From NCBI GenBank assembly GCA_039932315.1, contig JBDTQG010000015.1, forward strand, positions 1,148 to 65,147: DNA of 64,000 nucleotides, read 5' to 3'. Below the pieces are notes generated by a model. That model ran no database searches. It was given only the letters and a program-made list of their open reading frames with translations, and was not told the origin of the DNA. Below are positions 4,776-29,480 of this stretch, piece by piece. Position 1 is the first letter of the stretch, and each line of letters starts with the position of its first letter. The position numbers and the translations under genes were made by a program. Origin of the DNA: Thermoanaerobaculia bacterium (GTDB lineage Bacteria; Acidobacteriota; Thermoanaerobaculia; Multivoradales; JAGPDF01).

Positions 4776-4875
4776 GCGTCCATTGTAGCCGGGGGCGAGG
4801 GGCGGAATGTCCTCTTGGGGTGCTGGTTTGCGCTTAATAGAGGTGGAAGCCGATCCGTTCCCCAGGGAGAAACGC

Positions 4876-5406
4876 ATGAACTCGCCGATGTCCATTCCGC
4901 ACTTCACCAAGCGCCCGAAGCTGGGCGAAACGCTGCGCTTCTTCGGTCTGCTTTCGGGCGCCGAGCTCGACATCGCGCTCATCCGGCAGGAGAACGAGGG
5001 CGGAAGGCTCGGCACCTGCCTGCTCGACACCGGGCTCCTCGACGAAGCGACGCTTCTCGCCGCGCTCGGCGCGCAGCAGAACGTCACGACGGTCGATGCC
5101 GCGACGCTCGATGCGCTGCCTCAGTCCGCTGCGGCATTTCTGCCGGCGCGTGCTGCGCTCGTGGCGCGCGCAGTGCCGATCGCGCGCAGCGGCAAGTCGT
5201 TGGAGGTCGCGATGCTCGATCCGTCTTCCATGCAACTCATCGACGAGCTCGCCGCCGTCAGCCGCCTGGTGATCGTGCCGCGCCTCGCGCTCGAAGTGCG
5301 ACTGACGCAGTGTCTCGAGCGCCTCTACGATCTGACGATTTCCGGCCGCTTCGCCCGCACCCGCGAGCGCATCAGCCGCCGGCTCGCGCACGGCGTCGCG
5401 GTCTGA
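4876..5406 (+). CDS. stand-alone MshEN / T2SSE_N domain protein (predicted c-di-GMP receptor)
   Basis: ORF 4807..5406 trimmed to ATG 4876 (AGGGAGA 5 nt upstream). Two tandem 24-aa MshEN-type motifs, KLGETLRFFGLLSGAELDIALIRQ and RLGTCLLDTGLLDEATLLAALGAQ, are separated by ENEGG. They are followed by a GspE/PilB N-terminal-like segment (LEVAMLDPSSMQLIDELAAVSRLVIVPRLALEVRL). No ATPase domain. Confidence 0.75.
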   Translation: MNSPMSIPHFTKRPKLGETLRFFGLLSGAELDIALIRQENEGGRLGTCLLDTGLLDEATLLAALGAQQNVTTVDAATLDALPQSAAAFLPARAALVARAVPIARSGKSLEVAMLDPSSMQLIDELAAVSRLVIVPRLALEVRLTQCLERLYDLTISGRFARTRERISRRLAHGVAV

Positions 5407-5407
5407 T

Positions 5408-8194: not shown

Positions 8195-8281
8195 CTCCTT
8201 GTCAGAATCGAACAGGGAGACTCTGCGCCACGTCGTTCCGCGCGACGACCCGCGCTGGTCAGCGCGCGGGACTGACCTTGG

Positions 8282-10615
8282 TCAGGTGGCGACGCTGTCT
8301 GTGGACTCGCTGCCCTCGTACGGCGCGATGTAGTCGCAGGCCTCGTTCGGGCAGACGAGCTCGGTGCCCCGCCGTTTGGTCGTCTTCAGCGTGAGCAGCG
8401 GGTAGGCGCACTTCGGACAGGCCTGCTGGACGGGGGGATTCCACAGTGCGAACTTGCAGTCCGGGTAGCGGCTGCAGGAGTAGAAGATCTTCCCGCGCCG
8501 CGACTTCTTCTCCTGGATCGTGCCCTGCTTGCACTCGGGACACTGCACGCCGGTGTCCTTCGGCGGCGCCGCAGGCGGCCCGGTCTTGCGGATGTTCTTG
8601 CACTCCGGGTAGCCCGTGCAGCCGAGGAAAACGCCGAAACGACTGCGCCGCATGGCCATCGGCTTGCCGCACTTCTCGCACGGCGGGATGTCGGAAGGCT
8701 CCGCGGAAGCCGACGCTCCGCCGTCCGCGGGCGCATTGAGATCGCGCGTGTAGTCACAGGGCGGATCGTTGCGATACGTGCTGCAGCCGAGAAATGCACC
8801 ATAGCGGCCGAAGCGCATCACGAGGTCCGCGCCGCACTTCGGGCACTTCTCATCCACCTTGACGCCATCACGCTTGACGTTCGGCATCGTCTCGGCAGCG
8901 GTGACGAGATCCTTCGAGAAGCGGACGTCGAACTCTTCGACGGCGCGCTTCCATGGCATCTCGCCCTCTTCGATCCGATCGAGCTCCTCTTCGAGCTGCG
9001 CGGTGTAGCCCTCGTTCAGGATGTCCGAGAAGCCTTTCTGCAGCATGTCGTTCACCATCTTGCCGAGAGCGAGAGGATTGAAACGCCCTTCGACCTTCTC
9101 CGCATAGTCCCGGGTGGTCAGGGTCGACAGGATCGAGGCATAGGTCGAAGGGCGGCCGATGCCGTTCTCTTCGAGCGCCTTGACCAGTGTCGCTTCGCTG
9201 AACTGCGCCGGCGGCTGGGTGAACTTCTGTTCCTTGTTGAGCTTGACGAGCTTCAGGGTCTCGCCCTCCCGAAGCGCCGGGAGCAGCCCGTCGGACTCGT
9301 CCTCATCGTCAACGTCGCCCCGCTGCGCGGCGCGACGTTCGGCGGCTTCCTCTTTGGCCTCCTGATAGACGGCGAGAAAGCCGGGGCTCTTCATCACCTT
9401 GCCGGAGGCGCGCAGCGTGTAGATGCCGTTCGCGATGTCGACCTGGGTGACGTCGAAGACTGCCGGCAGCATCTGACTGGCGAGGAAACGATCCCAGATG
9501 AGGCGGTAGAGCTTGAGCTCGTCGGCTTCGAGGTACGGCGCGAGCTCCTCCGGCGGCAGATCGAGGAACGTCGGCCGGATCGCTTCGTGCGCGTCCTGTG
9601 CACCCTTCTTGGAGGCGTAGACATTGGGCTTCGCCGGCAGCTTGTCGGCGCCGTAGGTTTTCGTGATCGTTTCCCGCACCGCGTCGATCGCCTCGGCGGC
9701 GACGCGCGTCGAGTCGGTTCGCATGTAGGTGATGAGACCGATCTGTCCGCGGTCGCCGATTTCGCGCCCTTCATAAAGCCCCTGGGCGAGCCCCATCGTG
9801 CGCTTGACCGAGTAGCTGAACTTGCGCGCCGCCTCCTGCTGCAGCCGGCTGGTGATGAACGGCGGCAACGGCTTCTGCTTCGATTCCTTGCGTTCGATCG
9901 CCGCGACCTTGAAGGCACCGGCGAGGAGATCCTTTTCGATCGTCGCGGCCTGGGTGCCGTCCGTGACCCTCGCCTTCTTGCCTTCGACCTGATGGAGCCG
10001 CGCCGAAAACTCGGGCGGCACCGACGCGGTGAAGCGCCCGCCGACGATCCAGTACTCCTCGGGATTGAAGGCGTCGATCTCGGCCTGGCGCTCGCAGACC
10101 ATCTTGAGCGCAACCGACTGTACGCGGCCCGCCGACAGACCGCGTTTCAGCTTGTCCCAGAGGAGCGGCGAGAGCTTGAATCCCATGAGCCGGTCGATGA
10201 CGCGGCGAGCCTGCTGCGCGTCGACGCGGTTGACGTCGATCTTGCCCTTGTTCTCGAGCGCCTTCAGCACCGCGGTCTTGGTGATTTCGTTGAAGGTGAC
10301 GCGGTGCATCTCGCCTTCGACGTCGCCGAGAACCGCCGCGATGTGCCACGCGATCGCCTCTCCCTCGCGGTCCGGATCGGGAGCGAGATAGATCTGCTTC
10401 GCCTTCTTGGCGGCATCTTTCAGCTTCTTGACGACATCCTTCTTCGTCGCGAGGACCGCATAGGTCGGCTCGAAGCCCGGACCGAGGCCCATGTCCTTCT
10501 TCGGCAGATCGCGGATATGTCCGACGGACGCTTCGACGGCCCAGTCGCGACCGAGAAACTTCTTCAGGGTCCGCGTCTTGGCGGGGCTTTCGACGATGAT
10601 CAGGTTTTTGGCCAC
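8282..10615 (-). CDS. topA: DNA topoisomerase I
   Basis: 777-aa ORF. Toprim start: MAKNLIIVESPAKTRTLKKFLG...VGHIRDLP. Active-site region: GLITYMRTDSTRV. Four C-terminal Cys4 zinc ribbons: CPKCGADL...C, CEKCGKPM...C, CPECKQG...C, CPKCAYPL...C. Confidence 0.97.
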   Translation of the reverse strand: MAKNLIIVESPAKTRTLKKFLGRDWAVEASVGHIRDLPKKDMGLGPGFEPTYAVLATKKDVVKKLKDAAKKAKQIYLAPDPDREGEAIAWHIAAVLGDVEGEMHRVTFNEITKTAVLKALENKGKIDVNRVDAQQARRVIDRLMGFKLSPLLWDKLKRGLSAGRVQSVALKMVCERQAEIDAFNPEEYWIVGGRFTASVPPEFSARLHQVEGKKARVTDGTQAATIEKDLLAGAFKVAAIERKESKQKPLPPFITSRLQQEAARKFSYSVKRTMGLAQGLYEGREIGDRGQIGLITYMRTDSTRVAAEAIDAVRETITKTYGADKLPAKPNVYASKKGAQDAHEAIRPTFLDLPPEELAPYLEADELKLYRLIWDRFLASQMLPAVFDVTQVDIANGIYTLRASGKVMKSPGFLAVYQEAKEEAAERRAAQRGDVDDEDESDGLLPALREGETLKLVKLNKEQKFTQPPAQFSEATLVKALEENGIGRPSTYASILSTLTTRDYAEKVEGRFNPLALGKMVNDMLQKGFSDILNEGYTAQLEEELDRIEEGEMPWKRAVEEFDVRFSKDLVTAAETMPNVKRDGVKVDEKCPKCGADLVMRFGRYGAFLGCSTYRNDPPCDYTRDLNAPADGGASASAEPSDIPPCEKCGKPMAMRRSRFGVFLGCTGYPECKNIRKTGPPAAPPKDTGVQCPECKQGTIQEKKSRRGKIFYSCSRYPDCKFALWNPPVQQACPKCAYPLLTLKTTKRRGTELVCPNEACDYIAPYEGSESTDSVAT

Positions 10616-18587: not shown

Positions 18588-19346
18588 CTAAGGCTTGGCG
18601 GTGATGCGTGCGGCGAGCCGGAAAGCGGCCCGCCGCGCCGCACTGCGCGCTGCCTCGGCGTTGGGCTTTCCGGTCGCAGTGGCAAGCTCTTCGTACGACA
18701 GCCCGAGATCGACGCGCCCGACGAGCAGCACCTGATCGTCCTCGTCGAGCTGGAGAAGCGCCTCGCGATACTGCTGCTTCTCCTGCGACTCGATCGCCTC
18801 ATCGAGCGGCGTGTCGCGCGAGTCCGGCGTTTCGGAAAGGCCGCCTCCACCGCGCACTTCCCCCAGGCGCGCGCGCCGGATCTCATCGCGGATGCGATTG
18901 AAGATGCACTTCAGCACATATCGCTTGACGACCTCGGGCTCGAGCGCGCTGTCTTCTCCGAGCTGCCGCAGAACGTGAACGACAGCCTCCTGCACGAGAT
19001 CGCCGGTGTCCATTCGCCGGCGCGCATAGGTCGGCAACTTTCCGTGCGTCCAGCGTTGAAGATGCGGCAGAAGCGATGAAAGCAGCCGCTCGATCGTGTT
19101 CGGCCGTGAACGCGGCGGAGCGGAGATCTCGTCCGTGGCGCGCAGAGCGATGCTGACGAGCGAGATGTAGGCGTCGACTTCGGGCTCGGCGATTTCCGCT
19201 CTCTCCGATCCCTCGGGAAAGTTCGCAGCGAGCGCAGCGATCGCAGAGTCTGAAAGATGCGGCACGGCGCGCGGATACTCTCCGGCCGGCGCGGGGTCGA
19301 GCCGCATCGCCCCAGAGTTCTTTCCCCCGCCCGCCGAATGCGACAT
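18588..19346 (-). CDS. ECF-type RNA polymerase sigma-70 family factor with about 75-aa N-terminal extension
   Basis: 252-aa ORF. Region-2-like: DTGDLVQEAVVHVLRQL...YVLKCIFNRIRDEIRRA. Region-4-like: LLQLDEDDQVLLVGRVDLGLSYEELATATGKPNAEAARSAARRAAFRL. Paralogous to 19540..20124. Confidence 0.8.
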   Translation of the reverse strand: MSHSAGGGKNSGAMRLDPAPAGEYPRAVPHLSDSAIAALAANFPEGSERAEIAEPEVDAYISLVSIALRATDEISAPPRSRPNTIERLLSSLLPHLQRWTHGKLPTYARRRMDTGDLVQEAVVHVLRQLGEDSALEPEVVKRYVLKCIFNRIRDEIRRARLGEVRGGGGLSETPDSRDTPLDEAIESQEKQQYREALLQLDEDDQVLLVGRVDLGLSYEELATATGKPNAEAARSAARRAAFRLAARITAKP

Positions 19347-19539: not shown

Positions 19540-20124
19540 TCAGTCCGTGGGGCCGCCCGGCGTGCGTCCCATCGAACGCGCGAGGCGCATCGCCGCGCGC
19601 CGTGTCGCGTTGCGCGCGGCGTCCGGCGATGGCCGTCCGCTCATGATCGCGAGCTCCTCGAAGGAAAGCCCCATGTCGATGCGACCGACGAGCAACATCT
19701 GGTCGTCCTCGGGAAGTTGAAGGAGCGCCGCGCGATATTGCCGCCGGTTCTCTTCGTCGATCGCGTCCTCGAGTGGCGAGGGTCGGCTGTCCGCAGGGTT
19801 CGAAGTGTCGTTCGTCACTTCGCCGCGCGTCGCTCTCCGGACCTCGTCGCAGATGCGGTTCTGGATGGCGACGATCAGGTACTTGCGCAGCGCGATCGGA
19901 TTCGCCGCATCGATCTGACCGATGTTGCGCAACACACCGACGATCGCCTCCTGCACGAGATCGCCGGAGTCCATCCGACGGCGCGCGTAGCGCGGCAGTC
20001 GCCCGTGCGTCCAGCGTTGGAAGAACGGGAGCAGCGCGGCGATGGCGCGCTCGACCGCGGCAAAACGCCCGCGCGCTTCCGTCTCGACGCCGGCGTTGGC
20101 GCCGGCTCTGCGATCGTCGAGCAT
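19540..20124 (-). CDS. ECF-type RNA polymerase sigma-70 family factor
   Basis: 194-aa ORF. Shares with its neighbour the block LLP.[LF]QRWTHG.LP.YARRRMD.GDLVQEA and the region-4 block LLQL.EDDQ.LLVGR.D.GLS.EELA. Confidence 0.85.
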   Translation of the reverse strand: MLDDRRAGANAGVETEARGRFAAVERAIAALLPFFQRWTHGRLPRYARRRMDSGDLVQEAIVGVLRNIGQIDAANPIALRKYLIVAIQNRICDEVRRATRGEVTNDTSNPADSRPSPLEDAIDEENRRQYRAALLQLPEDDQMLLVGRIDMGLSFEELAIMSGRPSPDAARNATRRAAMRLARSMGRTPGGPTD

Positions 20125-20257: not shown

Positions 20258-22003
20258 ATGAGCCCATCGATCCGCGACGGTCCGACGTTTCTCAACGCGC
20301 GACTCTTCGCCACGCGAGCGTCGAGCCTGGCTCCCTCCGAGCTGCCCGAGGTCGAATCCGGCGACGCGAACTTCGGTCCGCCCTGGGCCGGCGTGTGCAT
20401 CTCGGGCGGCGGTTCGCGCTCGCTCGCCGCGGCGATGGGAGAGCTGCGCGGGCTCGACGCGCTCGGTCTGCTCTCCCGCATCGGCTGGATCTCCACCGTT
20501 TCCGGCGGCACCTGGGCGGGGACGCTCTTCAACTGGTCTCCGGCGGAGATCGATGACGGCACGCTTCTCGGGCCGCTCCAGCTCACGCCGGAGAACCTCC
20601 GATGGGATTCCGGCCGAAGCGTCGACAATCTTTCGGTTCTCGATGCGCAGGCCATCGGCTCCGCGGCCACCCGGCTCGGTCTCGAGGAGATGCTGGCGAA
20701 AGCGATCGAGCTCTACGATCGCGGCGTCCCCGCCGGGGAGCTCTGGCCGCGGGCGATCGGCGAGCTCGTCCTCGAACCTTTCGGGCTCGGCGACTCGCCG
20801 GCGCAGTACTTCACCTGGACAGCGGGCTGGCTGTCGCGCGCGATCCTTTCGAACAATCCGGGATTGCGCGCCAGCGACTTCGTCACAACGCGTACCGGCC
20901 GCCCGTACCTCATCACGAACTCGTCGCTCTTCTATCCGCCGAATCCGCCGGCGTCGCTCGAGACTCCGCAGCGTCCGGCCGGTGGAGGCGGACCGGCAAA
21001 CCCCTGGGAAGTCGGCTACGACTTCGAGACCACGCCGATTTCGGCGGGGATTCCGCCCGGATTTCCGCGAGCGGGTCCGCCGAGCCCGGGACAACCGGCG
21101 AGCTCCGATATCGGCGGTGGCTGGATCGATCCGTTCGCGATGGGCAGCGTGGCTCCTGCAAAAGTGGCCGAAGACGGCAGTTTCCGCGTTCCCACGCCGC
21201 CGCTTCGATTCCGCCTCTCGGACGCTGCGGGCCTCTCGAGCGTCGCGTTCGTCTACGACGTCCTCGACCTCGCGCACGCGAGCGGCATTCACTATCTCGA
21301 CGACATGGTTCCGGAAACCGTCTGCTGGCCGGTTCTCAATGCCGGTGCCCTGCCGCGAAACGCCGCGCGCTCGTACCTCTTCGGCGACGGCGGGAATCTC
21401 GAGAACCAGGGAATCATGGCGCTCCTGCGGCGGAACCTCGAGAAGATCATCGCCTTCGTCAACACCGAAACCCAGCTCTCGCTGAGCGGCACGGAAGTGA
21501 TCGTCGACTCCGATCTGCCACCGCTCTTCGGCCTCGAGTGGAGCGACTCGGCGGGAACGTACGTTCCGATCTCCGCCACCTCGCCGTTCCGCTTCAACCA
21601 GGTTTTCGACCGCGCGACCTTCGACGATCTGCGCACGCAGCTCTGGGCCCGTGCCCAGGCCGGCGCCACGGCGATGGCGGTCCAGACCGTCGTCGACGTT
21701 CTCGCGAACCCCCACTACGGCGTCGCCGGCGGCACGACCGACATCCTGTGGATCTACCTCAACCCCGTCAACCAGTGGTACAGCGAGCTCCACGACACCG
21801 TCCGCCTCGCCATGGAGCTCGAACCGCTCGACTACGAAATGTTCCCCAACTACTACACCGTCGATCAGCTGAATCTCAATGCCCACCAGGTGAACCTGCT
21901 GGCGCATCTGACGAGCTGGAATGTGGCGAGCACCGCGAAAGTCGGCGGCTTCTCGGCGAATGCGGAGGTGGTGAAGGGGTTTCTACAGGGCCTAAGACAC
22001 TAA
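20258..22003 (+). CDS. PLA2_B / cPLA2-like (patatin-related) serine-aspartate phospholipase
   Basis: 581-aa ORF. Oxyanion block: GVCISGGGSRSLAA. About 30 aa later, nucleophile block ISTVSGGTWAG (compare fungal PLB / cPLA2 SGGGYRA ... GLSGGSW). Aspartate block: LFGDGGNLENQGIMALLRR. No signal peptide seen. Confidence 0.75.
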   Translation: MSPSIRDGPTFLNARLFATRASSLAPSELPEVESGDANFGPPWAGVCISGGGSRSLAAAMGELRGLDALGLLSRIGWISTVSGGTWAGTLFNWSPAEIDDGTLLGPLQLTPENLRWDSGRSVDNLSVLDAQAIGSAATRLGLEEMLAKAIELYDRGVPAGELWPRAIGELVLEPFGLGDSPAQYFTWTAGWLSRAILSNNPGLRASDFVTTRTGRPYLITNSSLFYPPNPPASLETPQRPAGGGGPANPWEVGYDFETTPISAGIPPGFPRAGPPSPGQPASSDIGGGWIDPFAMGSVAPAKVAEDGSFRVPTPPLRFRLSDAAGLSSVAFVYDVLDLAHASGIHYLDDMVPETVCWPVLNAGALPRNAARSYLFGDGGNLENQGIMALLRRNLEKIIAFVNTETQLSLSGTEVIVDSDLPPLFGLEWSDSAGTYVPISATSPFRFNQVFDRATFDDLRTQLWARAQAGATAMAVQTVVDVLANPHYGVAGGTTDILWIYLNPVNQWYSELHDTVRLAMELEPLDYEMFPNYYTVDQLNLNAHQVNLLAHLTSWNVASTAKVGGFSANAEVVKGFLQGLRH

Positions 22004-22364
22004 GAAGCGAGCCGGCATTTGCTGAAACAACTCGCCGAAGTCGAGGCTTTTGGTTGAGGAGCCTGGGTGCTTGTTCGGTTCATCCTCTTCATTCGTTCAC
22101 CTAGATGAGCTCCATATCGTCGAGATGATCATGCTCTTTAGCGAGGGAAAATGTGGCTCGGACCTGCTTCCATCTGCGAGTGAAAGGTACCCCAATGCAA
22201 AGCCGCCATAGGTAAGGAGGCGCCGCCGCTCAGCAGCTGACCGCCGTCGATCGAAGGCGTCCGGCTCACGGAAGTGGCCGCGCAGATGCTCAAGAGGGCG
22301 CTTACCTTCGAGTGGACAACAAACGAGAGTTGAAACAAGGAAGCCCAAAAGGAGGTACCAGAAT

Positions 22365-23384
22365 ATGCAAGCTAAGGAAAGAATGCGGTTCGCGATGCTC
22401 TTCCTATTCGTGTGCTTAGTTACCCTGCCTTTGAAGGCGTGGGCAAGGTCGGAAGGGCGGCAGCTGCCGCCCTTTGCGGCGGGGCGCATGCCCAATGAGA
22501 CACCTAAGACTTTTGCGGAAGTTCAAGAATTTTTGAAAGACGAGAAGAATAACAAGAACCGATTGGTCGGTTCGACGAAGGGCGACGACGTTGACGTGTT
22601 CGTCGTTTATTGTAGGTGCAAGGACAGCACATGCGCGCCCGAGGTGGCCTTCAAAGAGGAGACGCGGAAGACCCGCCTCGAGGAAAGTTTTGGGGAACTC
22701 AAGAAGCTAGCGAACGCACTCGATGCAGAAGGCTGCAACCCGGACTGGGCCGTGGCGAGGAAGAAGCTAGTTGAGCAACGCGCAACCCTTTCAGTAGAAG
22801 CGAAAATGGCCAAAGCGCCACCTAGCCCGGAGGCACCGAGCCCCCTGCCAGCGCAGTGGCTAGTGGTTATCGACTTGAGAGATGGAGACAAGAAAGGTGC
22901 CAACCTCGCGAGCCAATCCGTCACGATATTGACGGGCGCAAGAGAGCCCTGGCTCCTCTCCGCAGCAATCCCGCTTAACAACGTCGATCAGCTGAAGTAC
23001 GACCTCGCGTCGGATCAGATCAAACTCAAGGAGGAACAGAAAACCTTCTATGTATCGCTGGACTACACCCTCGGTGACGCTCTTCTTGAACACCCAAAAT
23101 TTCATGAAGCGCTGACGTTGAAGCTTCTGGTCGCCGCTTCCAAAGATCCGCTTCACTCGGTCGGCGCTGGACTTGGTTTGATGCCGGGCTGGTTCTCGAC
23201 TAAAGACAATCGGTTAAAGATTCTTGACACTCTTTCCCCATGGGTAGGTGTTACGTTCACACAGCAAGACGAAGTCGCGGCCGACGGTACTGTTGATCAT
23301 CGCGGAAAGAGGAATCACGAATTTCGCGCAGGAATCTGCCTCAGTCTCACGGAAGTTACCGGCTGGTTCAAGAAGGCAAACTAG
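22365..23384 (+). CDS. secreted hypothetical protein (island gene 1)
   Basis: 339-aa ORF with AAGGAGG 8 nt upstream. Signal peptide: MRFAMLFLFVCLVTLPLKAWA. Contains CRCKDSTC and a Pro-rich linker (APPSPEAPSPLP). No family recognised. Confidence 0.7.
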   Translation: MQAKERMRFAMLFLFVCLVTLPLKAWARSEGRQLPPFAAGRMPNETPKTFAEVQEFLKDEKNNKNRLVGSTKGDDVDVFVVYCRCKDSTCAPEVAFKEETRKTRLEESFGELKKLANALDAEGCNPDWAVARKKLVEQRATLSVEAKMAKAPPSPEAPSPLPAQWLVVIDLRDGDKKGANLASQSVTILTGAREPWLLSAAIPLNNVDQLKYDLASDQIKLKEEQKTFYVSLDYTLGDALLEHPKFHEALTLKLLVAASKDPLHSVGAGLGLMPGWFSTKDNRLKILDTLSPWVGVTFTQQDEVAADGTVDHRGKRNHEFRAGICLSLTEVTGWFKKAN

Positions 23385-23455
23385 GCACGGTGCCAGAACA
23401 AGCTCATGACTGCCGGAATTGCGCGTCGCATTTCTAGTGATATCGGGATATTTCC

Positions 23456-24517
23456 TTGAAGCGCTCTGGGATCTTGTTCGCTGGAGTAGTTGGGATGACT
23501 TGCGTGTGGTGGCCATTGGGGGCTCTCCCTCAAGGCACTCCGACCTTGGGTATTGGGGGGCCAGCGGCTGACTTCCTTACGACCTTTTCGACGATTTCGG
23601 TCACCGGCCAAGTGTCCTGCGGAGGCGTAGGTAGCGAAGTCTCGATCAGTTGCAGTGCCGTGAGTGTTGCCGCCGCGCTGGCAGGAGAAAGTTGGTCGGC
23701 AAGTGTGCCCTTGACGCTGGGCGCAAATATGCTTCATATAAGCGCCTGTCAAAATGCGATAGCGAAAGACGTCTTCGTTACAAGAGCTGAACAAGTCGTC
23801 GCCGGCTCGCCACAGAAACTCTTCCTTCTATGGACGCCGGAAGCAAATCAAGCCGTAAAGCAAATAGCGCGAGAGACCCTCACGATCAAGCTTTCAAAGA
23901 AAGAGCTTGAAACCTTCGCAGAACGAGTTCGTGACGGCGTCCTTGCTATTTTGGCGGGGAGGTTTCCCATTGGGACGATTGAGCTCGTCGATTCGAGTGG
24001 ACCAGACGTCCACACAGTTCGAATGATCGGAGCGAAGGGAGGTGGCGTCTTCGGACAGACGCCAGTCTACGATTGCGGCAATCTTAGTCACGAGGGCCTG
24101 AGCGAGGTTTGGGTCGGTAGCTATGAAGAGTCGATGCGGAACCTCCCGCTATGGACACCAATGCTAATGAGCGATTCTGTAGGAGACCGAACTGAAGACA
24201 TCAGCCAAGCGCTGGCAAGAGGCGCTGCGCACGAGATTGGCCATGGGCTCGGCATGGTGGGGGGTGCGCCATCTGCGACCTGTGGCTGGATGAACGGATG
24301 CGATGACCTGCATGACTGCGAGTCATTTCAGGCGACTTACGGTAGCCTCGTCAATCGGTTTGAAAAAGGTGGCTACATCATGGACCCGGGAGACACGACG
24401 TTGCGACCTTGGCGGATTGCGCTTCCTCTAGGAAGGGCACATTCCCGCAGGCCTTCTGCTTTCTCGCCGTTCGACCAAGCCTACTTGGCCTTGTTGGCGG
24501 GAGGGGCGGTGCCGTGA
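23456..24517 (+). CDS. secreted HExxH zinc-metalloprotease-like protein (island gene 2)
   Basis: 353-aa ORF (TTG 23456; ATG 23495 alternative). Signal-like N-terminus: KRSGILFAGVVGMTCVWW. Zinc motif: AAHEIGHGLGM. Downstream: C-x5-C-x5-C and GGYIMDPG (possible Met-turn). Confidence 0.7.
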   Translation: MKRSGILFAGVVGMTCVWWPLGALPQGTPTLGIGGPAADFLTTFSTISVTGQVSCGGVGSEVSISCSAVSVAAALAGESWSASVPLTLGANMLHISACQNAIAKDVFVTRAEQVVAGSPQKLFLLWTPEANQAVKQIARETLTIKLSKKELETFAERVRDGVLAILAGRFPIGTIELVDSSGPDVHTVRMIGAKGGGVFGQTPVYDCGNLSHEGLSEVWVGSYEESMRNLPLWTPMLMSDSVGDRTEDISQALARGAAHEIGHGLGMVGGAPSATCGWMNGCDDLHDCESFQATYGSLVNRFEKGGYIMDPGDTTLRPWRIALPLGRAHSRRPSAFSPFDQAYLALLAGGAVP

Positions 24518-25764
24518 AGCGAGCGCTAGTCCTGCTGCTCGGACTCATTGTTCTCGTCGAATCGAGCAAGGCCTCGGATATTGAATACGGCGCCAGCGGG
24601 CTGGCCGGCCTCTCCAGCCGCGCAGATTTGGTAGTCCGCGCAATCTCATTGCAGAAGGTGCCGAGTGCGAGTTCAAGATTTTCAACGTATAGCGTCTCTG
24701 TCGGCGCCGTGTTGCGCGGAGTTGTTGACCCGGATCAGCCTCTACTAGTTAGAGTTCCCGCTGGACTGGATTTCTTGAGCGCCTCTTTAGTTCACGACAG
24801 TCTTCTCTTCCTGGATACCGATCCGAACGACGCCGGATTTATGGAGGTCTCGGTCGGCGGAGTAAGGACATCCCTACTGATTGCAGGTCGGCTTGGCGCT
24901 GTCGATGTCTCAAGTTCCTCTCCGCCAAACCGAGAGAGCAAGATCAAGACCTTCCTTTCAATCGCTGGTCTGCCCGAGCGATTGAGCTGGGCCCGAGATG
25001 CCATTGGGTCTGACGACGAGTACCTTGAAAGGTCAGCTCTGTTTGACTTCGCGAGCCCGGGCGCTGTGGGTGGCGATGTGGTCGTTAAAATTTTGAAGGA
25101 TGCGATCGACAGACAGCAGGTTGCAGCTGGGAACCTCTCGGTCGTAGTCGATGCGCTCCGAAATTCAGGCAGTCCCGAAGCACTTGAAGTACTCGGGGAC
25201 CTGGTAGATGACGCCAAGGCGCAAATGTTTGTTAAGAACTCTGCCATCGAGGCAATGCCGGCGCTGCCGGGAGGGCTGGAGATGCTGAAGGGCATTTCAC
25301 TTGGAAATGGCCAGTTGAAGGATAGAGCGCGGCTCCAGCTAGATCAGATGCAGGATGAAGCGTCGCTGGTTTTTGCGATGAAAGACGCCGACAGGCTCAT
25401 ACCCTTGTTGGATTCGCCAGACGTGAAGCTGCGCGACGATGCGCTAGGTAAACTAATAGCAGGCGAGCCAAGCAGCGACCTGGTGGCGGCGTATCGACGC
25501 CTTCTGCAGAGGGATTCTTGGGCTGGAACAACAGTGAAACTCCTCATTGTTGAAGACCTCTCGACATTTGACGGAGCGCTGGCCGCGACCCTCTTAAAAG
25601 ATGTCGCTGCCGATAGCGATCAAAGTGATCTCGTTCGACGGCGCGCGATCATCAATATAGGAAAATTCGAGAGCGCGATCAGCAAGCCCATACTTACTCG
25701 CCTCGCTACAAAGTTGGAGGATGCGAAGCTGAGAAATTTGGCGAAGGCATCTGTAAACCAGTAG
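24514..25764 (+). CDS. secreted HEAT/ARM-like helical-repeat protein (island gene 3)
   Basis: ORF 24409..25764 trimmed to GTG 24514, which overlaps the upstream stop (GTGA). Signal peptide: KRALVLLLGLIVLVESSKA. C-terminal two-thirds has HEAT-like units (ALRNSGSPEALEVLGDLVDD..., LIPLLDSPDVKLRDDALGKL..., DLVRRRAIINIGKF...). Confidence 0.65.
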   Translation: MKRALVLLLGLIVLVESSKASDIEYGASGLAGLSSRADLVVRAISLQKVPSASSRFSTYSVSVGAVLRGVVDPDQPLLVRVPAGLDFLSASLVHDSLLFLDTDPNDAGFMEVSVGGVRTSLLIAGRLGAVDVSSSSPPNRESKIKTFLSIAGLPERLSWARDAIGSDDEYLERSALFDFASPGAVGGDVVVKILKDAIDRQQVAAGNLSVVVDALRNSGSPEALEVLGDLVDDAKAQMFVKNSAIEAMPALPGGLEMLKGISLGNGQLKDRARLQLDQMQDEASLVFAMKDADRLIPLLDSPDVKLRDDALGKLIAGEPSSDLVAAYRRLLQRDSWAGTTVKLLIVEDLSTFDGALAATLLKDVAADSDQSDLVRRRAIINIGKFESAISKPILTRLATKLEDAKLRNLAKASVNQ

Positions 25765-25860
25765 CGGGAGCGAAGGCGAAGGTCGAGCGGCGGCGCTGGT
25801 TACTTGGTCGTAGATGAACTTGCTCGCCAATATCTCAGAGCCGATTGTGGCGAAGAGTGT

Positions 25861-26330
25861 CTACGTTTCGTTGTTCACCGACACCCGGCTTCCTGAGGTT
25901 TTTCTAGGGGTTGAAGCGGGTGGCGCCGACTTGGAAGTCGACACGAAGAGCTTCGGCAAAGGCTTGAGCCGCGTGCGGCGGTTGAGGCGAGAGTCCTGAG
26001 GGGTGCGCCGAAGGTTGTAGTACTCGAGGAACCGATCGAGATCAACCTGAAGCTGCGCCGTGTCTTCGTACCAAGTCTTCGTTCTTTCGACGTGGAAGCA
26101 CTCATCGAGCAGCGTTCGATTTACACTTTCGACGAGGCTCTTGGTGCGCGGTGAACGGGCGCGGAGTTGCTATGGTCGATGCCCTCAACAGCGAGCATCG
26201 TCGAGGACGACGTTGACGAGCGGCTTTCAGGCAATGAACTTCCGGCGACCATTCGAGGCAACTCTCGGGTTAGTCCACAGCGGTCTTGCAATTGGTTCCG
26301 AGAGCCTTTCCGAGGACTTATTGGGAGGCA
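25861..26330 (-). pseudogene. decayed integrase-core (rve, IS481/IS3-like) transposase remnant, C-terminal part only
   Basis: Hand translation of the minus strand gives ...VASNGRRKFIA(stop)KPLVNVVLDDARC(stop), then after a frame change ...AVEGIDHSNSAPVHRAP, then a further frame change to RTKSLVESVNRTLLDECFHVERTKTWYEDTAQLQVDLDRFLEYYNLRRTPQDSRLNRRT...(stop at 25861). This parallels the rve pattern TDNG.EF ... GI.H ... P.TNG.VER.NRTL..E ... LQ.DLD.FL..YN..RPHQG. Conserved residues are substituted, and there are two frame breaks and internal stops. 5' limit approximate. Confidence 0.6.
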
Positions 26331-26455
26331 CCGCCGGCCATTTCTCCCGGAGGCCGGCGTCGCGACCGGTCCGCCCCGTTCGTTCGTTTACTAAGCGTGC
26401 CCTTCTCAGCCGGAGCCAGGCGCAGGAAAGTGACGAACGTATTCGAGAGGTTCTC

Positions 26456-27931
26456 GTGAGCGGGCGAAGATCTCTCGCCCTGCTAACTGCTCTCGCGGTC
26501 CTTTCGGGCTGCACCGCCGGTCACCGGATCACGCGCTTTCAGCCCGACGAGCGGGTCTCCTCGAGTCATCGCGGTGTCTACTACGCGCTGCCGCGAACGG
26601 TGCTTCAAGTGACGGTCGAGGCGAAGCGGACGGAGACACTTGCGAGAGGCTGCTTTGAGGCGTTGATTGGGTCGCCCGTCGCGGGACCGCTTGCCGGGAA
26701 ATTGCTCTGGGAGTCGTTGAAGTTCGCCGAGGCGCCGGAGGCGGGCGGGGCTTTCTCGGTGGAGGGCGTTCCAGCGGTCAGCGCGCTTGCGGAGCCGGAT
26801 CCTCGTCAGATCTTCAAGGCGGACCTCGATTCGAGCTTCTGGATCCAGCGCAAGATCGAGCTCAATTTCGGACCGTTGGGGGTGCTCGAGTCGGCGAGTT
26901 CGCTGGCACAGAGCCAGGCGCTCGATTTCGTCGCGGGCGTCGTGAAAGTGGCGGGAGCGGCTTTCACGATGGACTTCTCGCCCACCGTCGGCATCGCTCC
27001 GAACCTCGCAGCGAACCTCGTCGAGCGTTGCCGGCCATACGCGGAGCAGATCGTCGAGGATCGCGAATTTCTCGAGTCGATTCCGAACAGGGTGAGGGAC
27101 GGTCTGTTGCCGCGAGCTTCGGCGGATTGGCTCCTGGAGGCGCTGGACTCCCGTATTCAGCGGAACCTGGGCAAGTTCCTCGTCGAGAGGGAGAGCTCGG
27201 GGACGGTCTCCTGTTTCGTTCGCCCCGCCACGCGGGCTGAACCAGGGGCGCAGGCATCTGCGGGACCGCCTCGACCGACCGCCAAACCTCTGACGGAAGA
27301 GTTTGATGTGCTGAAGGTCTCCGCGAGCGGAGGATTCAGCTCCGGCGTCGACGCAGATTGCCTCATCCCCGGTGAATTTCAGGCAGCCCGGCCGAAAGTG
27401 TCGATCGGAATCGAGAATGACTTCTCGCTTCACCTCGGAACGAAGGTGCTCGCGGATCAGGTCGTGAACGGTCTCTATGGGGCTCGCCTCGATCTCGCAC
27501 AGGACCCGGGCGACGAGCAGAGCTTCTACTACCGGATTCCGGCGGTCGCGCGGGTCACTCTCGAGAGTCGGCCGGTGGACAAGGGAAGTGTCGGCAGAGT
27601 CGTCGCCGTCCGCGACCTGATCGTGGCGCAGTACGGGATCGTTGCCTCCCTTCCGCGGCAGCGCGCGATGGAATCTCAGTATGCGTTGACCCTCGATCCG
27701 ATGACCGGCGCGCTCGTCAAGCTGTCGTCCGATCGCGAGGCGCTGGATGCGAAATTTCTGGGAACCCTCGAGGGGGTCGTGGCAGATCGCGTGCAAGCGC
27801 GCGACGCCGCGGCCGCCGCGAAGGCGGAAGCGGAGGATGAGCTGACTCAACTCGAAAGAGAGCGCAAGCTTCTCGACGAGCGCAAGAAGATCCGCGACCT
27901 GCGACTGGACCTTGGGGAGGACGCGCCGTAG
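26456..27931 (+). CDS. lipoprotein with C-terminal coiled coil (function unknown)
   Basis: ORF 26060..27931 trimmed to GTG 26456 (GAGAGG 6 nt upstream); the upstream part overlaps the transposase remnant. Lipobox: LALLTALAVLSGC. The early block GVYYALPRTVLQVTVEAK reminds me of DUF4831-type lipoproteins (unverified). Tail AKAEAEDELTQLERERKLLDERKKIRDLRLDL is coiled-coil-like. Confidence 0.7.
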   Translation: MSGRRSLALLTALAVLSGCTAGHRITRFQPDERVSSSHRGVYYALPRTVLQVTVEAKRTETLARGCFEALIGSPVAGPLAGKLLWESLKFAEAPEAGGAFSVEGVPAVSALAEPDPRQIFKADLDSSFWIQRKIELNFGPLGVLESASSLAQSQALDFVAGVVKVAGAAFTMDFSPTVGIAPNLAANLVERCRPYAEQIVEDREFLESIPNRVRDGLLPRASADWLLEALDSRIQRNLGKFLVERESSGTVSCFVRPATRAEPGAQASAGPPRPTAKPLTEEFDVLKVSASGGFSSGVDADCLIPGEFQAARPKVSIGIENDFSLHLGTKVLADQVVNGLYGARLDLAQDPGDEQSFYYRIPAVARVTLESRPVDKGSVGRVVAVRDLIVAQYGIVASLPRQRAMESQYALTLDPMTGALVKLSSDREALDAKFLGTLEGVVADRVQARDAAAAAKAEAEDELTQLERERKLLDERKKIRDLRLDLGEDAP

Positions 27932-27956
27932 TCGAGGCGCAGTGGAGGTTTTCATC

Positions 27957-29480
27957 GTGCCCAGGTATGTGATGAGTCATCGCCGGGCCGGCCGCTTTCT
28001 CGCGACCGAGAAGCTCGCTTCACGGGCGGCATTGGCTTCGACGTGGAGTCGCGTGCAGCAGCTCGCTTCGACGAATGTGGTCTTCGACGGCCGGCCGGAG
28101 GACGAGCTCGCGCGGCGGGTCGTGGTGTTCGATGCCCAGCCGGGCGAGCTCGCCGGGATCGCGGCGGCGGCAGGTCCGGATGTGCTCATCGAGCCCGAGC
28201 TTCTGCGCTGGCCTTCGATCGTCTACCCGCCGCAGTTCCGCGGGCTGCAGAAGACGGGGAGTTTCGCGCCGCTCGCGGCGGCGCCGGCGGGGCGGGGGCG
28301 GACGTTCGAGGCCGAGGCGTTCTCGCACGGTGAGCCGCTCGCGCATGCGACGGTCTATCTCTTTCTCCAGGGGAGCGACGGCCGGCAGACGTCGGTCGAG
28401 CGCGAGACCGGTGCGGATGGCAAGGTCGCCTTCGAACACAGCGCGTTCTGGACGCCGGGTGCCATTCTCGTGCTGCCCTACTGTTCGGCCTGGGGCACCG
28501 TCGTGCGCGGGCCACGGAGCCCCATCGCGATCGATTGTCCGAGCCTCGATCCCGGCACCGGCGCGCACTCGTCACCCTGGTGGCATGCGCTCTTTCACCT
28601 CAAAGAGTCGGACCGCAAGCGCGGCGATGGAATCCGGGTCGGTATCTGCGATACCGGCGTGGGGCCTCATCCGGACCTCGCGCACGTCGTCGACGCCGGG
28701 GCGTTTCTGGACGGGGCGTTTCTCGAGGGCCAGGCGGCGGACGTCGACAGTCACGGGACGCACGTCGCGGGAATCGTCGGCGCGCATTCGCGGTCCGAAG
28801 GACGGACCGGTATCGCGCCCGCATGCGCGCTGTTGATGGCGCGCATCTTTCCTCCCGGGGGCGGCGCGAGTCAGGCGGACGTTGCGAACGCGATCGACGC
28901 TCTGTCGAAGACGCACGAGTGCGATCTGCTCAATCTTTCCCTGGGCAGCAGCTACGCCTCGGAGATCGAGCGCGATGCCCTCGAGGACGCTTTCGAGCGC
29001 GGGACGCTCGCGATCTGTGCGGCGGGCAACGAGGCCGGCGCGGTCTCTTTTCCCGCGAGCTACGACGTCACGGTGGCGGTTTCGGCCCTCGGCCTCTCGG
29101 GCTGGGGGCCGGCCGACTCGGATGCCAACCTCGATCTGCCGCAGGACGCCGACCGCTACGGCGACGACAATCTCTATCTCGCCGGCTTCAGCTGTTTCGG
29201 GAGGGAAGTCGATGCCGCCGGTCCCGGAGTCGGCATCGTCTCGACCGTTCCGGAGCGCCACGGTTTCATCGCGCCGAGGGCGGAGATGTCGGGCACCTCG
29301 ATGGCGAGTCCGGCGGTCTGCGGCGCACTCGCAGTGCTGCTCGCCGCCGATCCGGTCTATCGCACCCTGCCGCGCGATTCGAGTCGCGCGGCACGGGCGC
29401 GCTCCCTCCTGCGACAGGCCTGCCGCGACGTCGGGCTCGATGCCACCTACGAAGGCGCCGGCGTTCCGGCGGTCGGTTGA
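27957..29480 (+). CDS. subtilisin-like serine peptidase (S8) with I9-like pro-region and prealbumin-like middle domain; no signal peptide seen
   Basis: ORF 27912..29480. GTG 27957 is preferred (GGAGG 8 nt upstream); ATG 27972 is an alternative. Catalytic triad blocks: GICDTGVGPH (Asp), DSHGTHVAGIVG (His), MSGTSMASPAVCG (Ser). N-terminus: VVVFDAQPGELAGIAAAAGPDVLIEPELL (propeptide-like). Middle: GEPLAHATVYLFLQGSDGRQTSVERETGADGKVAF (CarboxypepD_reg-like). Confidence 0.9.
   Translation: MPRYVMSHRRAGRFLATEKLASRAALASTWSRVQQLASTNVVFDGRPEDELARRVVVFDAQPGELAGIAAAAGPDVLIEPELLRWPSIVYPPQFRGLQKTGSFAPLAAAPAGRGRTFEAEAFSHGEPLAHATVYLFLQGSDGRQTSVERETGADGKVAFEHSAFWTPGAILVLPYCSAWGTVVRGPRSPIAIDCPSLDPGTGAHSSPWWHALFHLKESDRKRGDGIRVGICDTGVGPHPDLAHVVDAGAFLDGAFLEGQAADVDSHGTHVAGIVGAHSRSEGRTGIAPACALLMARIFPPGGGASQADVANAIDALSKTHECDLLNLSLGSSYASEIERDALEDAFERGTLAICAAGNEAGAVSFPASYDVTVAVSALGLSGWGPADSDANLDLPQDADRYGDDNLYLAGFSCFGREVDAAGPGVGIVSTVPERHGFIAPRAEMSGTSMASPAVCGALAVLLAADPVYRTLPRDSSRAARARSLLRQACRDVGLDATYEGAGVPAVG

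What the first reader, a model, noticed from the sequence alone, without database searches (positions are those of the whole stretch)
22004..26455. Low-GC island with a tightly linked trio of signal-peptide genes of unknown function
G+C drops abruptly from about 70% to 37-57% (hand counts at lines 22381, 22501, 23881, 25141) right after the phospholipase stop. It recovers to 67-68% at the lipoprotein gene, and the right border is a decayed rve-type transposase.

Inside are three + strand genes: a 71-nt gap between genes 1 and 2, then a GTGA start/stop overlap between genes 2 and 3. Each has an N-terminal signal-like segment.
- Gene 1: a 339-aa protein with no domain I can name.
- Gene 2: a 353-aa HExxH protein.
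- Gene 3: a 416-aa HEAT/ARM-like repeat protein.

The first gene has a consensus AAGGAGG ribosome-binding site. Composition (Lys/Glu/Ser-rich) differs from the Arg/Ala-rich host proteins. I cannot match the trio to any described secretion, toxin, defence or adhesion system. The working hypothesis is a horizontally acquired extracytoplasmic protease module: protease, helical-repeat partner and an unknown third component.
Basis: partly seen in the sequence, partly recalled or inferred. Interest (0 to 1): 0.7.

Follow-up and report, generated by a model that had tools for sequence, protein, structure and literature searches.

The report
Foreign island with exported protease module
A 4.4-kb stretch of foreign-looking DNA in an uncultured Acidobacteriota genome carries a widespread but undescribed gene pair (a secreted zinc protease and its helical-repeat partner), plus a third exported gene from a separate undescribed family that elsewhere sits next to other secreted hydrolases.

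Summary
**Observation: confirmed.**
- Window 22004-26455 is the only compositionally aberrant stretch in the 64 kb.
  - GC is 0.56, against 0.665 elsewhere.
  - GC3 is 0.59-0.64, against 0.76-0.84.
  - GC-corrected tetranucleotide r is 0.68, against 0.94±0.02.
- A decayed rve_3 transposase lies at the right edge. There is no tRNA, att site or flanking repeat.
- All three ORFs are real and carry signal-peptide-like N-termini.

**The trio is not one conserved unit.**
- Genes 2 and 3 form a strictly conserved, often overlapping pair, seen in 12 of 12 loci with downstream sequence.
  - Gene 2 has an Ig-like domain plus a metzincin-type HExxHxxG zinc peptidase. No Pfam or NCBIfam model covers the family.
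  - Gene 3 has a beta-rich domain plus HEAT repeats, and a conserved mature N-terminus.
- Gene 1 belongs to a separate family with no fold match in PDB.
  - It is absent from all 8 other gene-2 loci that have at least 1 kb of upstream sequence.
  - Elsewhere it sits directly upstream of subtilase-like genes or LpxR.
  - Its closest homolog follows the same cPLA2-like gene as in the window.

**Most likely reading.** This is a horizontally acquired mosaic of extracytoplasmic hydrolase modules. Gene 3 is probably a latency or escort partner. Gene 1 is probably a potempin-like companion. Both roles are inferred, not shown.

**Other results.** PADLOC, plasmid and viral-contig searches gave no match.

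**Verdict.** Moderate interest; new variant of a known kind.

The parts
22004..26455 (.). Low-GC, atypical-signature island between the cPLA2-like gene stop and the lipoprotein gene start
   Evidence: GC is 0.560 against 0.665. The maximum-likelihood segment is 21831-26322. Tetranucleotide r is 0.68 against 0.94±0.02. GC3 and codon usage also deviate.
22349..22355 (+). AAGGAGG ribosome-binding site, 9 nt before the gene 1 ATG
   Evidence: Read directly from the sequence.
22365..23384 (+). Gene 1 (339 aa): exported beta-rich protein of an undescribed family. It has a signal peptide ending AWA|RS, a variable N-terminal alpha/beta domain and a conserved C-terminal beta domain (residues ~183-338).
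   Evidence: The ORF is. The AF2 model has pLDDT 85. There is no PDB or BFVD fold match at E<1e-3, and no Pfam, NCBIfam, PADLOC or PDB-sequence match. Conservation with P0003 starts at residue 34, upstream of NCBI's start at M42.
23456..24517 (+). Gene 2 (353 aa, TTG start): exported Ig-like domain (~residues 29-110) plus a metzincin-type zinc peptidase domain (~118-353). HEIGH is at residues 259-263 (nt 24230-24244).
   Evidence: In the 53-sequence alignment A2, H259, E260, H263, G266 and H286 are invariant and M309 and D310 nearly so. The AF2 model has pLDDT 92.6. Single family members give weak Pfam hits to M10, Reprolysin, M7 and DUF4953. PDB profile hits to MMPs, myroilysin, snapalysin and EcxA are weak.
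24514..25764 (+). Gene 3 (416 aa, GTG start, GTGA overlap with the gene 2 stop): exported partner. It has a signal peptide (SKA|SD), a conserved mature N-terminus x-D-x-x-[YF]-G, an N-terminal beta-rich domain and HEAT repeats.
   Evidence: Pfam HEAT_2 matches at E=1e-6. The family alignment is A7. PDB alphaRep matches at E=9e-17. The gene is adjacent to gene 2 homologs in every locus with downstream DNA.
25942..26157 (-). Decayed C-terminal fragment of an rve-type (IS481/IS3-like) transposase. A possible further fragment lies at 26230-26283 in another frame.
   Evidence: Six-frame translation. Pfam rve_3 matches at E=9.6e-7, above the cut-off.
20258..22003 (+). Left flank, host composition: cPLA2/PLB-like phospholipase (GGGxR and GxSGxW motifs).
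   Evidence: PDB cPLA2-delta matches at E=1.1e-4 over the nucleophile elbow. GC3 is 0.83. Its homolog precedes the gene 1 homolog in L001.
26456..29480 (+). Right flank, host composition: lipoprotein (LSGC lipobox) overlapping by 20 nt a Pfam S8 subtilase (27912-29480).
   Evidence: The lipoprotein is unrelated to gene 1's family by hhalign.

Best explanation
The segment is a horizontally acquired, now immobile mosaic island in a Thermoanaerobaculia chromosome. It sits in a neighbourhood that is already rich in exported hydrolases.

**What it carries**
- A conserved two-gene module, genes 2 and 3.
  - Gene 2 is a Sec-exported zinc endopeptidase of an undescribed metzincin-type family. It has an N-terminal Ig-like domain and an HExxHxxG site. 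Its third histidine appears displaced by a ~19-residue Cys-containing insert, and it has a conserved Met (IMDPG).
  - Gene 3 is translated in tandem with it. It is an exported partner made of a beta-rich domain and HEAT repeats.
- Gene 1, a member of a different undescribed family of exported beta-rich proteins. In other genomes these sit immediately upstream of exported subtilase-like hydrolases or LpxR.

**Inferred mechanism**
- Gene 3 binds gene 2 in the periplasm as a latency, escort or adaptor partner. It may plug the zinc site with its conserved mature N-terminus.
- Gene 1 is a companion (guardian, anchor or substrate) of envelope hydrolases, by analogy with potempins.

**Shown versus inferred**
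- Shown: the composition, the gene structures, the families, the motif conservation and the synteny.
- Inferred: export, catalytic activity and the roles of genes 1 and 3.
For: **Foreign origin**
- Composition, tetranucleotide signature and codon usage all deviate.
- An rve_3 relic lies at the right edge.
- Low GC is not intrinsic to these gene families. Homolog pairs in other hosts are close to their flanks, for example L005 at 0.659 against 0.662.

**Mosaic rather than single unit**
- Codon usage of gene 1 is closer to the host (r=0.72) than that of genes 2 and 3 (0.34 and 0.45).

**Gene 2-gene 3 unit**
- A gene 3 homolog lies directly downstream of the gene 2 homolog in L002 (a Verrucomicrobiae MAG), L003, L004, L005, L007, L008, L011, L012, L014 and L022. 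The same holds in the P0005 contig, where a 426-aa HEAT_2 gene overlaps by 4 nt.

**Peptidase assignment**
- H259, E260, H263, G266 and H286 are invariant, and M309 and D310 nearly so, in 53 sequences at 26-39% identity.
- The order of secondary-structure elements in the AF2 model (pLDDT 92.6) fits a zincin catalytic domain.
- All weak family hits are to metzincins.

**Export**
- N-terminal hydrophobic segments are present across both families.
- Conserved cysteines flank the zinc site.

**Gene 3 N-terminus**
- D22 and G26 are invariant directly after the predicted cleavage site. L022 shows the same.

**Gene 1 partners**
- L016, L017 and L019/L020 have a downstream, overlapping 565-602 aa exported protein with D-H-N-S motifs in subtilase order.
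- L018 has a Pfam S8 gene 9 nt downstream.
- L001 has LpxR starting at the next base.

**Published precedents**
- Upstream-encoded exported beta-barrel inhibitors of peptidases of different catalytic classes (potempins): PMC9890683.
- A secreted metzincin paired with a TIMP-like protein: PMC8235301.
Against: - No experimental data exist for any member of either family.
- Foldseek on the whole gene 2 model returned only Ig-domain matches. No metzincin appeared in the top 50, so fold-level membership is unproven.
- The canonical third zinc ligand position (+6 after the second His) is Gly.
- The gene 2 start is uncertain: it is a TTG with a weak Shine-Dalgarno sequence, and an ATG 39 nt downstream has a better GGAG.
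- The inhibitor role of gene 3 rests only on analogy and a conserved N-terminus. Gene 3 of the window has Ser where most homologs have the second Asp.
- Gene 1's partners include non-proteases, and its fold matches nothing, including potempins.
- Only 8 gene 1 contexts were seen.
- The island has no att site, tRNA or repeats, so how it inserted is unknown.
Confidence: 0.55

Rival explanations
1. One reading: genes 1, 2 and 3 are one three-component extracytoplasmic protease system, acquired and working as a unit.
For: - The three genes are tightly spaced on the same strand in the window, with a 71-nt gap and then an overlap.
- The closest gene 2 relative (P0005, 41% identity) also has an unannotated 358-aa gene 17 nt upstream, followed by the HEAT gene.
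- Gene 1's family usually sits upstream of a hydrolase.
- Some gene 1 relatives carry inserted HEAT-like repeats.
Against: - No gene 1-family ORF was found in any of 8 other gene 2 loci with at least 1 kb of upstream DNA, nor in L022.
- Gene 1's nearest homolog is followed by LpxR, not by genes 2 and 3.
- Codon usage differs between gene 1 and genes 2-3.
- The 358-aa gene in the P0005 contig could not be read because no DNA was available.
Confidence: 0.2
2. A conflict or defence module with gasdermin-like logic. Gene 1 would be a latent membrane-damaging beta-rich effector that its neighbouring protease activates by cleavage. The variable protease class would reflect effector-activator shuffling.
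For: - One family is paired with different hydrolase classes.
- Two gene 1 loci lie in defence-island-like surroundings: SIR2_2, a methyltransferase and Mrr_cat-nSTAND3 in L018, and SMC/AAA_15 and a UvrD-like gene in L019.
- L015 has EAD1-Trypsin_2 plus EAD1-STAND-HEAT beside a gene 1 homolog. That system type is described in PMC7159879.
- CARD/gasdermin systems swap effectors (PMC10312443).
- The top, though insignificant, fold hits are pore-forming proteins and porins.
Against: - Gene 1 and most partners have signal peptides, which does not fit cytoplasmic phage sensing.
- There is no PADLOC hit.
- No fold match reaches E<1e-3. The lysenin and porin hits have probability of 0.13 or less.
- No relatives were found in viral contigs.
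- The L015 system is 344 nt away and may be only a neighbour.
Confidence: 0.12
3. Gene 1 belongs functionally with the upstream cPLA2-like phospholipase as a lipid or outer-membrane remodelling unit. Genes 2 and 3 were inserted beside it later.
For: - The order phospholipase then gene 1 is conserved in L001. Identity is about 71% in the phospholipase tail and 59% in gene 1, and the downstream gene there is the lipid A deacylase LpxR.
- Gene 1's codon usage is closer to the host than that of genes 2 and 3.
Against: - Only two loci support this.
- No phospholipase homolog was found in six other gene 1 loci.
- The composition break falls between the phospholipase and gene 1 in both loci.
- Intergenic DNA is not conserved.
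Confidence: 0.1
4. Not foreign DNA: native genes whose odd composition reflects weak expression or amino-acid content.
For: - There is no att site, tRNA or flanking repeat.
- L001 shows the same composition drop after the phospholipase gene.
Against: - The deviation is in GC3, in GC-corrected tetranucleotides (about 13 SD) and in codon usage, not only in amino-acid content.
- A transposase relic lies at the edge.
- Homologs in other hosts match their flanks.
Confidence: 0.03

Closest known systems
KLIKK-peptidase/potempin system of Tannerella forsythia (PMC9890683)
   Same: An exported beta-rich protein is encoded immediately upstream of, and co-transcribed with, an exported peptidase. The partners span metallo-, subtilisin- and chymotrypsin-type enzymes. 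The proposed role is to guard the cell's own envelope.
   Different: Potempins are 98-132 aa lipoproteins of two unrelated folds (OB and 8-stranded up-and-down barrel). Gene 1 belongs to one homologous family of 330-600 aa proteins, has no lipobox and gave no fold match to any PDB entry. Inhibition is untested.
Metzincin plus cognate exported inhibitor pairs: serralysin/AprA with APRin/Inh (MEROPS I38) and MMP-TIMP (my own knowledge), and Listeria Mtz-Tim (PMC8235301)
   Same: A secreted metzincin-type peptidase is encoded beside an exported non-enzymatic partner. In I38 inhibitors and TIMPs the partner's mature N-terminus enters the active site, and gene 3 has a conserved mature N-terminus.
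   Different: Gene 3 is far larger (about 300-435 aa) and contains HEAT repeats, and shows no detectable sequence relation to I38 or TIMP. Gene 3's structure was not predicted.
Leishmanolysin (M8) within the metzincin clan (my own knowledge; the paper was not read here)
   Same: An HExxHxxG motif is followed by an insertion before the third zinc-binding histidine, and then by a conserved methionine.
   Different: The insert is about 19 residues here, against about 60 in leishmanolysin. There is no Pfam Peptidase_M8 hit. The overall architecture differs (Ig-like domain plus a ~235-aa catalytic domain).
Bacterial gasdermin-protease and EAD/CARD-linked conflict systems (PMC10312443, PMC7159879)
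   Same: A constant non-enzymatic component is paired with interchangeable proteases. Some relatives lie in defence-island-like neighbourhoods.
   Different: The window's proteins carry signal peptides. The window has no NTPase or sensor gene, there is no PADLOC match, and the fold shows no similarity to gasdermin.
IS-associated genomic islets
   Same: Atypical composition, accessory cargo and a decayed rve transposase at one edge.
   Different: No intact mobility gene, no inverted or direct repeats and no tRNA target.

Membership tests
Metzincin clan (MA(M)) zinc peptidases - gene 2 | Extended zinc motif HExxHxxGxxH/D | tested here: inconclusive
   HExxHxxG is invariant in 53 sequences (H259, E260, H263, G266). 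The canonical third-ligand position 269 is Gly. An invariant His286 lies 19 residues further on and may replace it.
Metzincin clan (MA(M)) zinc peptidases - gene 2 | Conserved Met-turn beneath the zinc site | tested here: inconclusive
   M309 is at least 90% conserved within the IMDPG motif. Its position relative to the metal could not be checked because no model coordinates were available.
Metzincin clan (MA(M)) zinc peptidases - gene 2 | Catalytic-domain fold (beta-sheet, backing helix, active-site helix, C-terminal helix) matching solved metzincins | tested here: inconclusive
   The element order in the AF2 model fits. However, whole-model Foldseek returned only Ig-domain matches, and the domain could not be searched on its own.
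Metzincin clan (MA(M)) zinc peptidases - gene 2 | Significant sequence match to a curated metzincin family | tested here: not met
   The window protein has no Pfam or NCBIfam peptidase hit. Single relatives hit M10, Reprolysin_5, M7, DUF4953 and Reprolysin at E of 2e-4 to 9e-3. PDB profile hits have E of 0.057 or worse.
HEAT-repeat proteins (Pfam HEAT_2 / PBS-HEAT) - gene 3 | Score above the Pfam gathering threshold; repeats align to solved HEAT proteins | tested here: met
   HEAT_2 scores 29.4 bits against a 27.7 cut-off. The family profile matches alphaRep at E=8.7e-17.
Horizontally acquired genomic island | Composition significantly different from the host | tested here: met
Horizontally acquired genomic island | Mobility gene or its relic | tested here: met
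   An rve_3 fragment lies at 25942-26157 on the minus strand.
Horizontally acquired genomic island | Flanking direct repeats, att site or tRNA target | tested here: not met
   Only short chance-level repeats, no tRNA and no Rfam hit.
Bacterial gasdermin-protease defence systems - gene 1 | Gasdermin fold or HMM match; cytoplasmic, lipid-anchored effector | tested here: not met
   No PADLOC hit. No gasdermin appears among the Foldseek PDB matches. Gene 1 has a cleavable signal peptide.
Potempin-type or I38-type exported peptidase inhibitors - genes 1 and 3 | Stable inhibitory complex with the genetically linked peptidase | not testable with these tools
   This needs complex prediction or biochemistry. 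The gene order resembles potempins, and there is no fold match for gene 1.
Outer-membrane beta-barrel proteins - gene 1 C-terminal domain | Closed transmembrane barrel with a C-terminal aromatic beta-signal | tested here: not met
   Only insignificant porin and OmpA matches. The protein ends in a predicted helix (...GWFKKAN), and helices interrupt the strands.

The most novel reading that the evidence does not exclude
Gene 1's family could define a new, widespread class of envelope modules. In these, one conserved exported beta-rich protein of novel fold is coupled to interchangeable exported hydrolases (subtilase-like, metzincin-like, LpxR). It would act either as a protease-activated membrane-active effector, an extracytoplasmic counterpart of gasdermin-protease systems, or as a universal guardian or anchor that works across catalytic classes. 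The gene 2-gene 3 pair would be a second new module: a metzincin kept latent by a HEAT-repeat partner.
Probability: 0.15. Interest if true: 0.8.

Novelty: new variant of a known kind. Interest (0 to 1): 0.45.

Why it matters
- Two protein families have no model in Pfam (2025), NCBIfam (2026) or PADLOC. Together they gave 436 matches among 50%-identity cluster representatives. They turn out to have regular partners.
- The Ig-metzincin/HEAT pair would add a new metzincin family with a displaced third zinc ligand. It may also add a new type of protein partner or inhibitor.
- Gene 1's family would be a new fold that accompanies exported hydrolases of different classes. The only close precedent found is the potempin system of one oral pathogen.
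- Both ideas can be tested directly with complex prediction and simple enzymology.
- The island itself is an ordinary small insertion scar. Its ecological role in an uncultured Thermoanaerobaculia bacterium is unknown.

Tried and rejected
- **Left-border transposase relic.** A minus-strand peptide at 22104-22229 (…FTRRWKQVRATFSLAKEHDHLDDMELI*) looked like an IS4/IS5 tail. It has no Pfam hit at E<=1 and no tblastn hit in 72,556 plasmids at E<=1, so I dropped it.
- **Left border inside the phospholipase gene.** The maximum-likelihood fit suggested this. I rejected it because GC3 stays high to the stop codon.
- **Word-index homolog searches.** Genes 2 and 3 returned only themselves, and gene 1 returned one homolog. 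This looked like orphan status, but the full HMMER scan overturned it.
- **Genome-collection scan with the gene 1 alignment.** Nothing was found. With the gene 2 alignment, one locus was found.
- **Viral contigs.** No relatives of gene 1 or gene 2. One attempt failed because the alignment was not conserved enough.
- **Plasmids.** No match for gene 1 or gene 2.
- **PADLOC.** No hits for the three genes or their flanks.
- **Gene 1 compared with the downstream lipoprotein and with gene 3 by hhalign.** Unrelated.
- **Subtilase nature of the 565-602 aa partners of gene 1 homologs.** No Pfam hit and no PDB sequence hit. This rests only on the order of conserved D-T-G, H, G-N and G-T-S-x-A-x-P motifs.
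- **Foldseek of the gene 1 model against BFVD.** Nothing significant.
- **Promoter and terminator scan of the island.** Nothing above the shuffled expectation.

Full report
**Source and observation**

The window comes from a 66.5-kb contig of a Thermoanaerobaculia (Acidobacteriota) MAG. The three genes are ABI639_05580, ABI639_05585 and ABI639_05590, all named 'hypothetical protein'.

The compositional anomaly is real.
- GC is 0.560 in 22004-26455 against 0.665 elsewhere. This stretch holds every 1-kb window below 0.60 in the 64 kb.
- A two-breakpoint likelihood fit gives 21831-26322, with a log-likelihood gain of 72.
- GC3 of the upstream phospholipase gene stays at 0.76-0.92 to its stop, so the left border is at about 22004. 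The right border is gradual over 25765-26455.
- GC3 of genes 1-3 is 0.59-0.64, against 0.76-0.84 for neighbouring genes.
- After correction for base composition, the tetranucleotide signature of 22001-26000 correlates at r=0.68 with the rest. All other 4-kb windows give 0.94±0.02.
- Codon usage correlates at 0.72, 0.34 and 0.45 with host genes for genes 1, 2 and 3. Ten host genes give 0.86-0.98.

The AAGGAGG site, the 71-nt gap and the GTGA overlap with a GGAGG site are all present.

The right-edge transposase relic is confirmed. Minus strand 25942-26157 matches Pfam rve_3 at E=9.6e-7.

No tRNA, Rfam family, att-like site or flanking repeat was found. A suspected second relic at the left edge did not hold up.

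**The genes are not orphans**

Word-index searches suggested orphans. A full HMMER scan of 1.84 billion representatives, with genes 1 and 2 joined end to end, told a different story. It found 436 proteins at E<=1e-3 and 205 at E<=1e-10. In the listed hits, each best-scoring match lies in one half of the joined query only, so no fusion of the two families was seen. Every member that carries a source name is 'hypothetical protein'.

**Gene 2**

A 53-sequence alignment at 26-39% identity to the window protein shows a consistent layout.
- It starts with a signal-like N-terminus.
- An Ig-like domain follows. It gives a weak Glucodextran_B match in 8 members and matches PDB 1ug9.
- A ~235-residue domain follows. 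In it H259, E260, H263, G266 and H286 are invariant, along with D240, R245, D248, R301 and G305. M309 and D310 are nearly invariant (IMDPG).
- The canonical metzincin third-ligand position is Gly. The invariant His286 lies after a ~19-residue insert with conserved cysteines. From my own knowledge, this layout recalls leishmanolysin.

The AF2 model is confident (pLDDT 92.6) and its order of strands and helices fits a zincin catalytic domain. Whole-model Foldseek was dominated by the Ig domain. Sequence links to curated metzincins are weak and below thresholds.

I therefore call gene 2 a metzincin-type zinc peptidase of an unmodelled family, with membership of the clan unproven.

NCBI's start (285 aa) removes the signal peptide and most of the conserved Ig-like domain. 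The TTG at 23456 fits the family best, although an ATG at 23495 has the better Shine-Dalgarno sequence.

**Gene 3 and the gene 2-gene 3 unit**

Gene 3 matches HEAT_2 above threshold. Its family profile matches PBS-HEAT alphaRep proteins at E=9e-17 over the middle third. The N-terminal ~150 residues match nothing.

A gene 3 homolog lies directly downstream of the gene 2 homolog in every locus that has downstream DNA, with overlaps or gaps of 30 nt or less where the coordinates were read.
- This holds in L002 (a Verrucomicrobiae MAG), L003, L004, L005, L007, L008, L011, L012, L014 (broken by frameshifts) and L022.
- It also holds in the contig of P0005, where a 426-aa HEAT_2 gene overlaps by 4 nt.
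- The L011 and L012 matches are weaker (E of 1e-7 and 7e-6).

In all seven family sequences read (the six in the alignment, including the window's gene 3, plus L022), the first residues after the predicted signal-peptidase site follow x-D-x-x-[YF]-G. By analogy with exported metzincin inhibitors, whose mature N-terminus enters the active site, I infer that gene 3 is a latency or escort partner of gene 2. A secreted metzincin paired with a TIMP-like protein is documented in Listeria (PMC8235301).

**Gene 1**

The family has a signal peptide in 51 of 53 members. It has a variable N-terminal domain and a conserved C-terminal beta domain (TGPxEHWFLSADVP … FYxGxxYxxGD … PLDSxG … SPFVG … SLNLDxALxW). 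Some members carry inserted HEAT-like repeats.

The AF2 model (pLDDT 85) has no significant match in PDB or BFVD. The best, insignificant hits are pore-forming proteins and porins. There is no Pfam, NCBIfam, PADLOC or PDB sequence match. Conservation with its homolog shows that the true start is the 339-aa one, not NCBI's 298-aa one.

The family was not found in any of 8 other gene 2 loci with at least 1 kb of upstream DNA, nor in L022. Its own neighbourhoods are as follows.
- **L016, L017, L019/L020:** an overlapping downstream 565-602 aa exported protein. It has conserved D-T-G, H, G-N and G-T-S-x-A-x-P motifs in subtilase order, but no Pfam or PDB hit.
- **L018:** a Pfam S8 gene 9 nt downstream, among SIR2_2, methyltransferase and Mrr_cat-nSTAND3 genes.
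- **L015:** an EAD1-Trypsin_2 plus EAD1-STAND-HEAT system 344 nt away.
- **L001:** the closest homolog (59% identity). It is preceded by the tail of a homolog of the window's cPLA2-like gene and followed at the next base by LpxR.

So gene 1 is a companion of exported hydrolases of several classes. The closest published analogy is the potempin system, in which upstream-encoded exported beta-barrel inhibitors guard against peptidases of three catalytic classes (PMC9890683). Potempins are small lipoproteins of other folds, so this is a functional analogy only.

**Synthesis**

The island is a small mosaic.
- Genes 2 and 3 form a self-contained conserved module with the most foreign codon usage.
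- Gene 1 has a separate history and may have been at this site, next to the phospholipase gene, for longer.
- L001 shows the same composition drop right after the phospholipase stop: GC3 is 0.90 in the tail and 0.60 in the next gene. Only 180 nt of flank are available there. This remains unexplained and could mark an insertion hotspot.
- The surroundings are rich in exported hydrolases. These include a Peptidase_MA_2/PD40 protein, the cPLA2-like gene, a lipoprotein-S8 pair, an S33 hydrolase and an FG-GAP protein, together with two ECF sigma genes.

A defence reading with gasdermin-like logic is not excluded for gene 1's family. The signal peptides, the lack of PADLOC hits and the absence from viral contigs all count against it.

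**Verdict**

The foreign origin, the protease and the helical-repeat partner hold up, but the trio is not a conserved unit.
- Novelty lies in two undescribed families and their regular partnerships, not in the island itself.
- Interest is moderate.

Noticed in passing
window 22365-23384 and 23456-24517: The deposited annotation starts both genes too far downstream (298 aa and 285 aa). Conservation with homologs begins upstream of both starts. The annotated proteins therefore lose their signal peptides, and gene 2 also loses most of its Ig-like domain.
   Followed up: yes
L001 1-2448: A second contig (GCA_040960765.1) repeats the window's layout: the tail of a cPLA2-like gene (GC3 0.90), then a gene 1 homolog (GC3 0.60), then LpxR (GC3 0.62). 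The same composition drop therefore occurs at the same gene boundary in another organism. This could mark an insertion hotspot.
   Followed up: partly
window 26456-29480: A lipoprotein gene (LSGC lipobox, weak DUF4831 match) overlaps by 20 nt a Pfam S8 subtilase. This is another partner-plus-protease pair directly right of the island, and it has host composition.
   Followed up: partly
window 18588-19346 and 19540-20124, minus strand: Two tandem ECF-type sigma-factor-like genes (Sigma70_r2 and r4_2 matches) lie just upstream of the phospholipase gene.
   Followed up: no
window 4001-10000: The tetranucleotide correlation dips mildly (0.88 against 0.94). The stretch contains a 928-aa ORF (5408-8194, minus strand) with no Pfam hit, next to topoisomerase I (8282-10615, minus strand).
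   Followed up: no
L015 2167-6347: An EAD1-Trypsin_2 gene is followed by an EAD1-STAND NTPase-HEAT gene. This is a known type of NTPase conflict system, and it lies 344 nt downstream of a gene 1 homolog.
   Followed up: partly
L018 1695-10879 and L019 455-10876: Pairs of a gene 1 homolog and a protease sit among defence-like genes. L018 has SIR2_2, an N6/N4 methyltransferase and Mrr_cat-nSTAND3. L019 has SMC_N/AAA_15 and a UvrD-like helicase.
   Followed up: no
L016 1661-3358, L017 1662-3278, L019 9068-10876: A 565-602 aa exported protein family has no Pfam or PDB sequence match. Its conserved D-T-G, H, G-N and G-T-S-x-A-x-P motifs occur in subtilase order, so it is probably a very divergent subtilase family.
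   Followed up: partly
proteins P0079, P0084, P0092, P0097; L021 1504-3195: Longer members of gene 1's family (497-592 aa) carry an inserted block of HEAT-like repeats between the N-terminal and C-terminal domains.
   Followed up: no
L014 375-2007: A gene 2-gene 3 pair is split over several frames. This is either a decaying copy or an assembly error.
   Followed up: no
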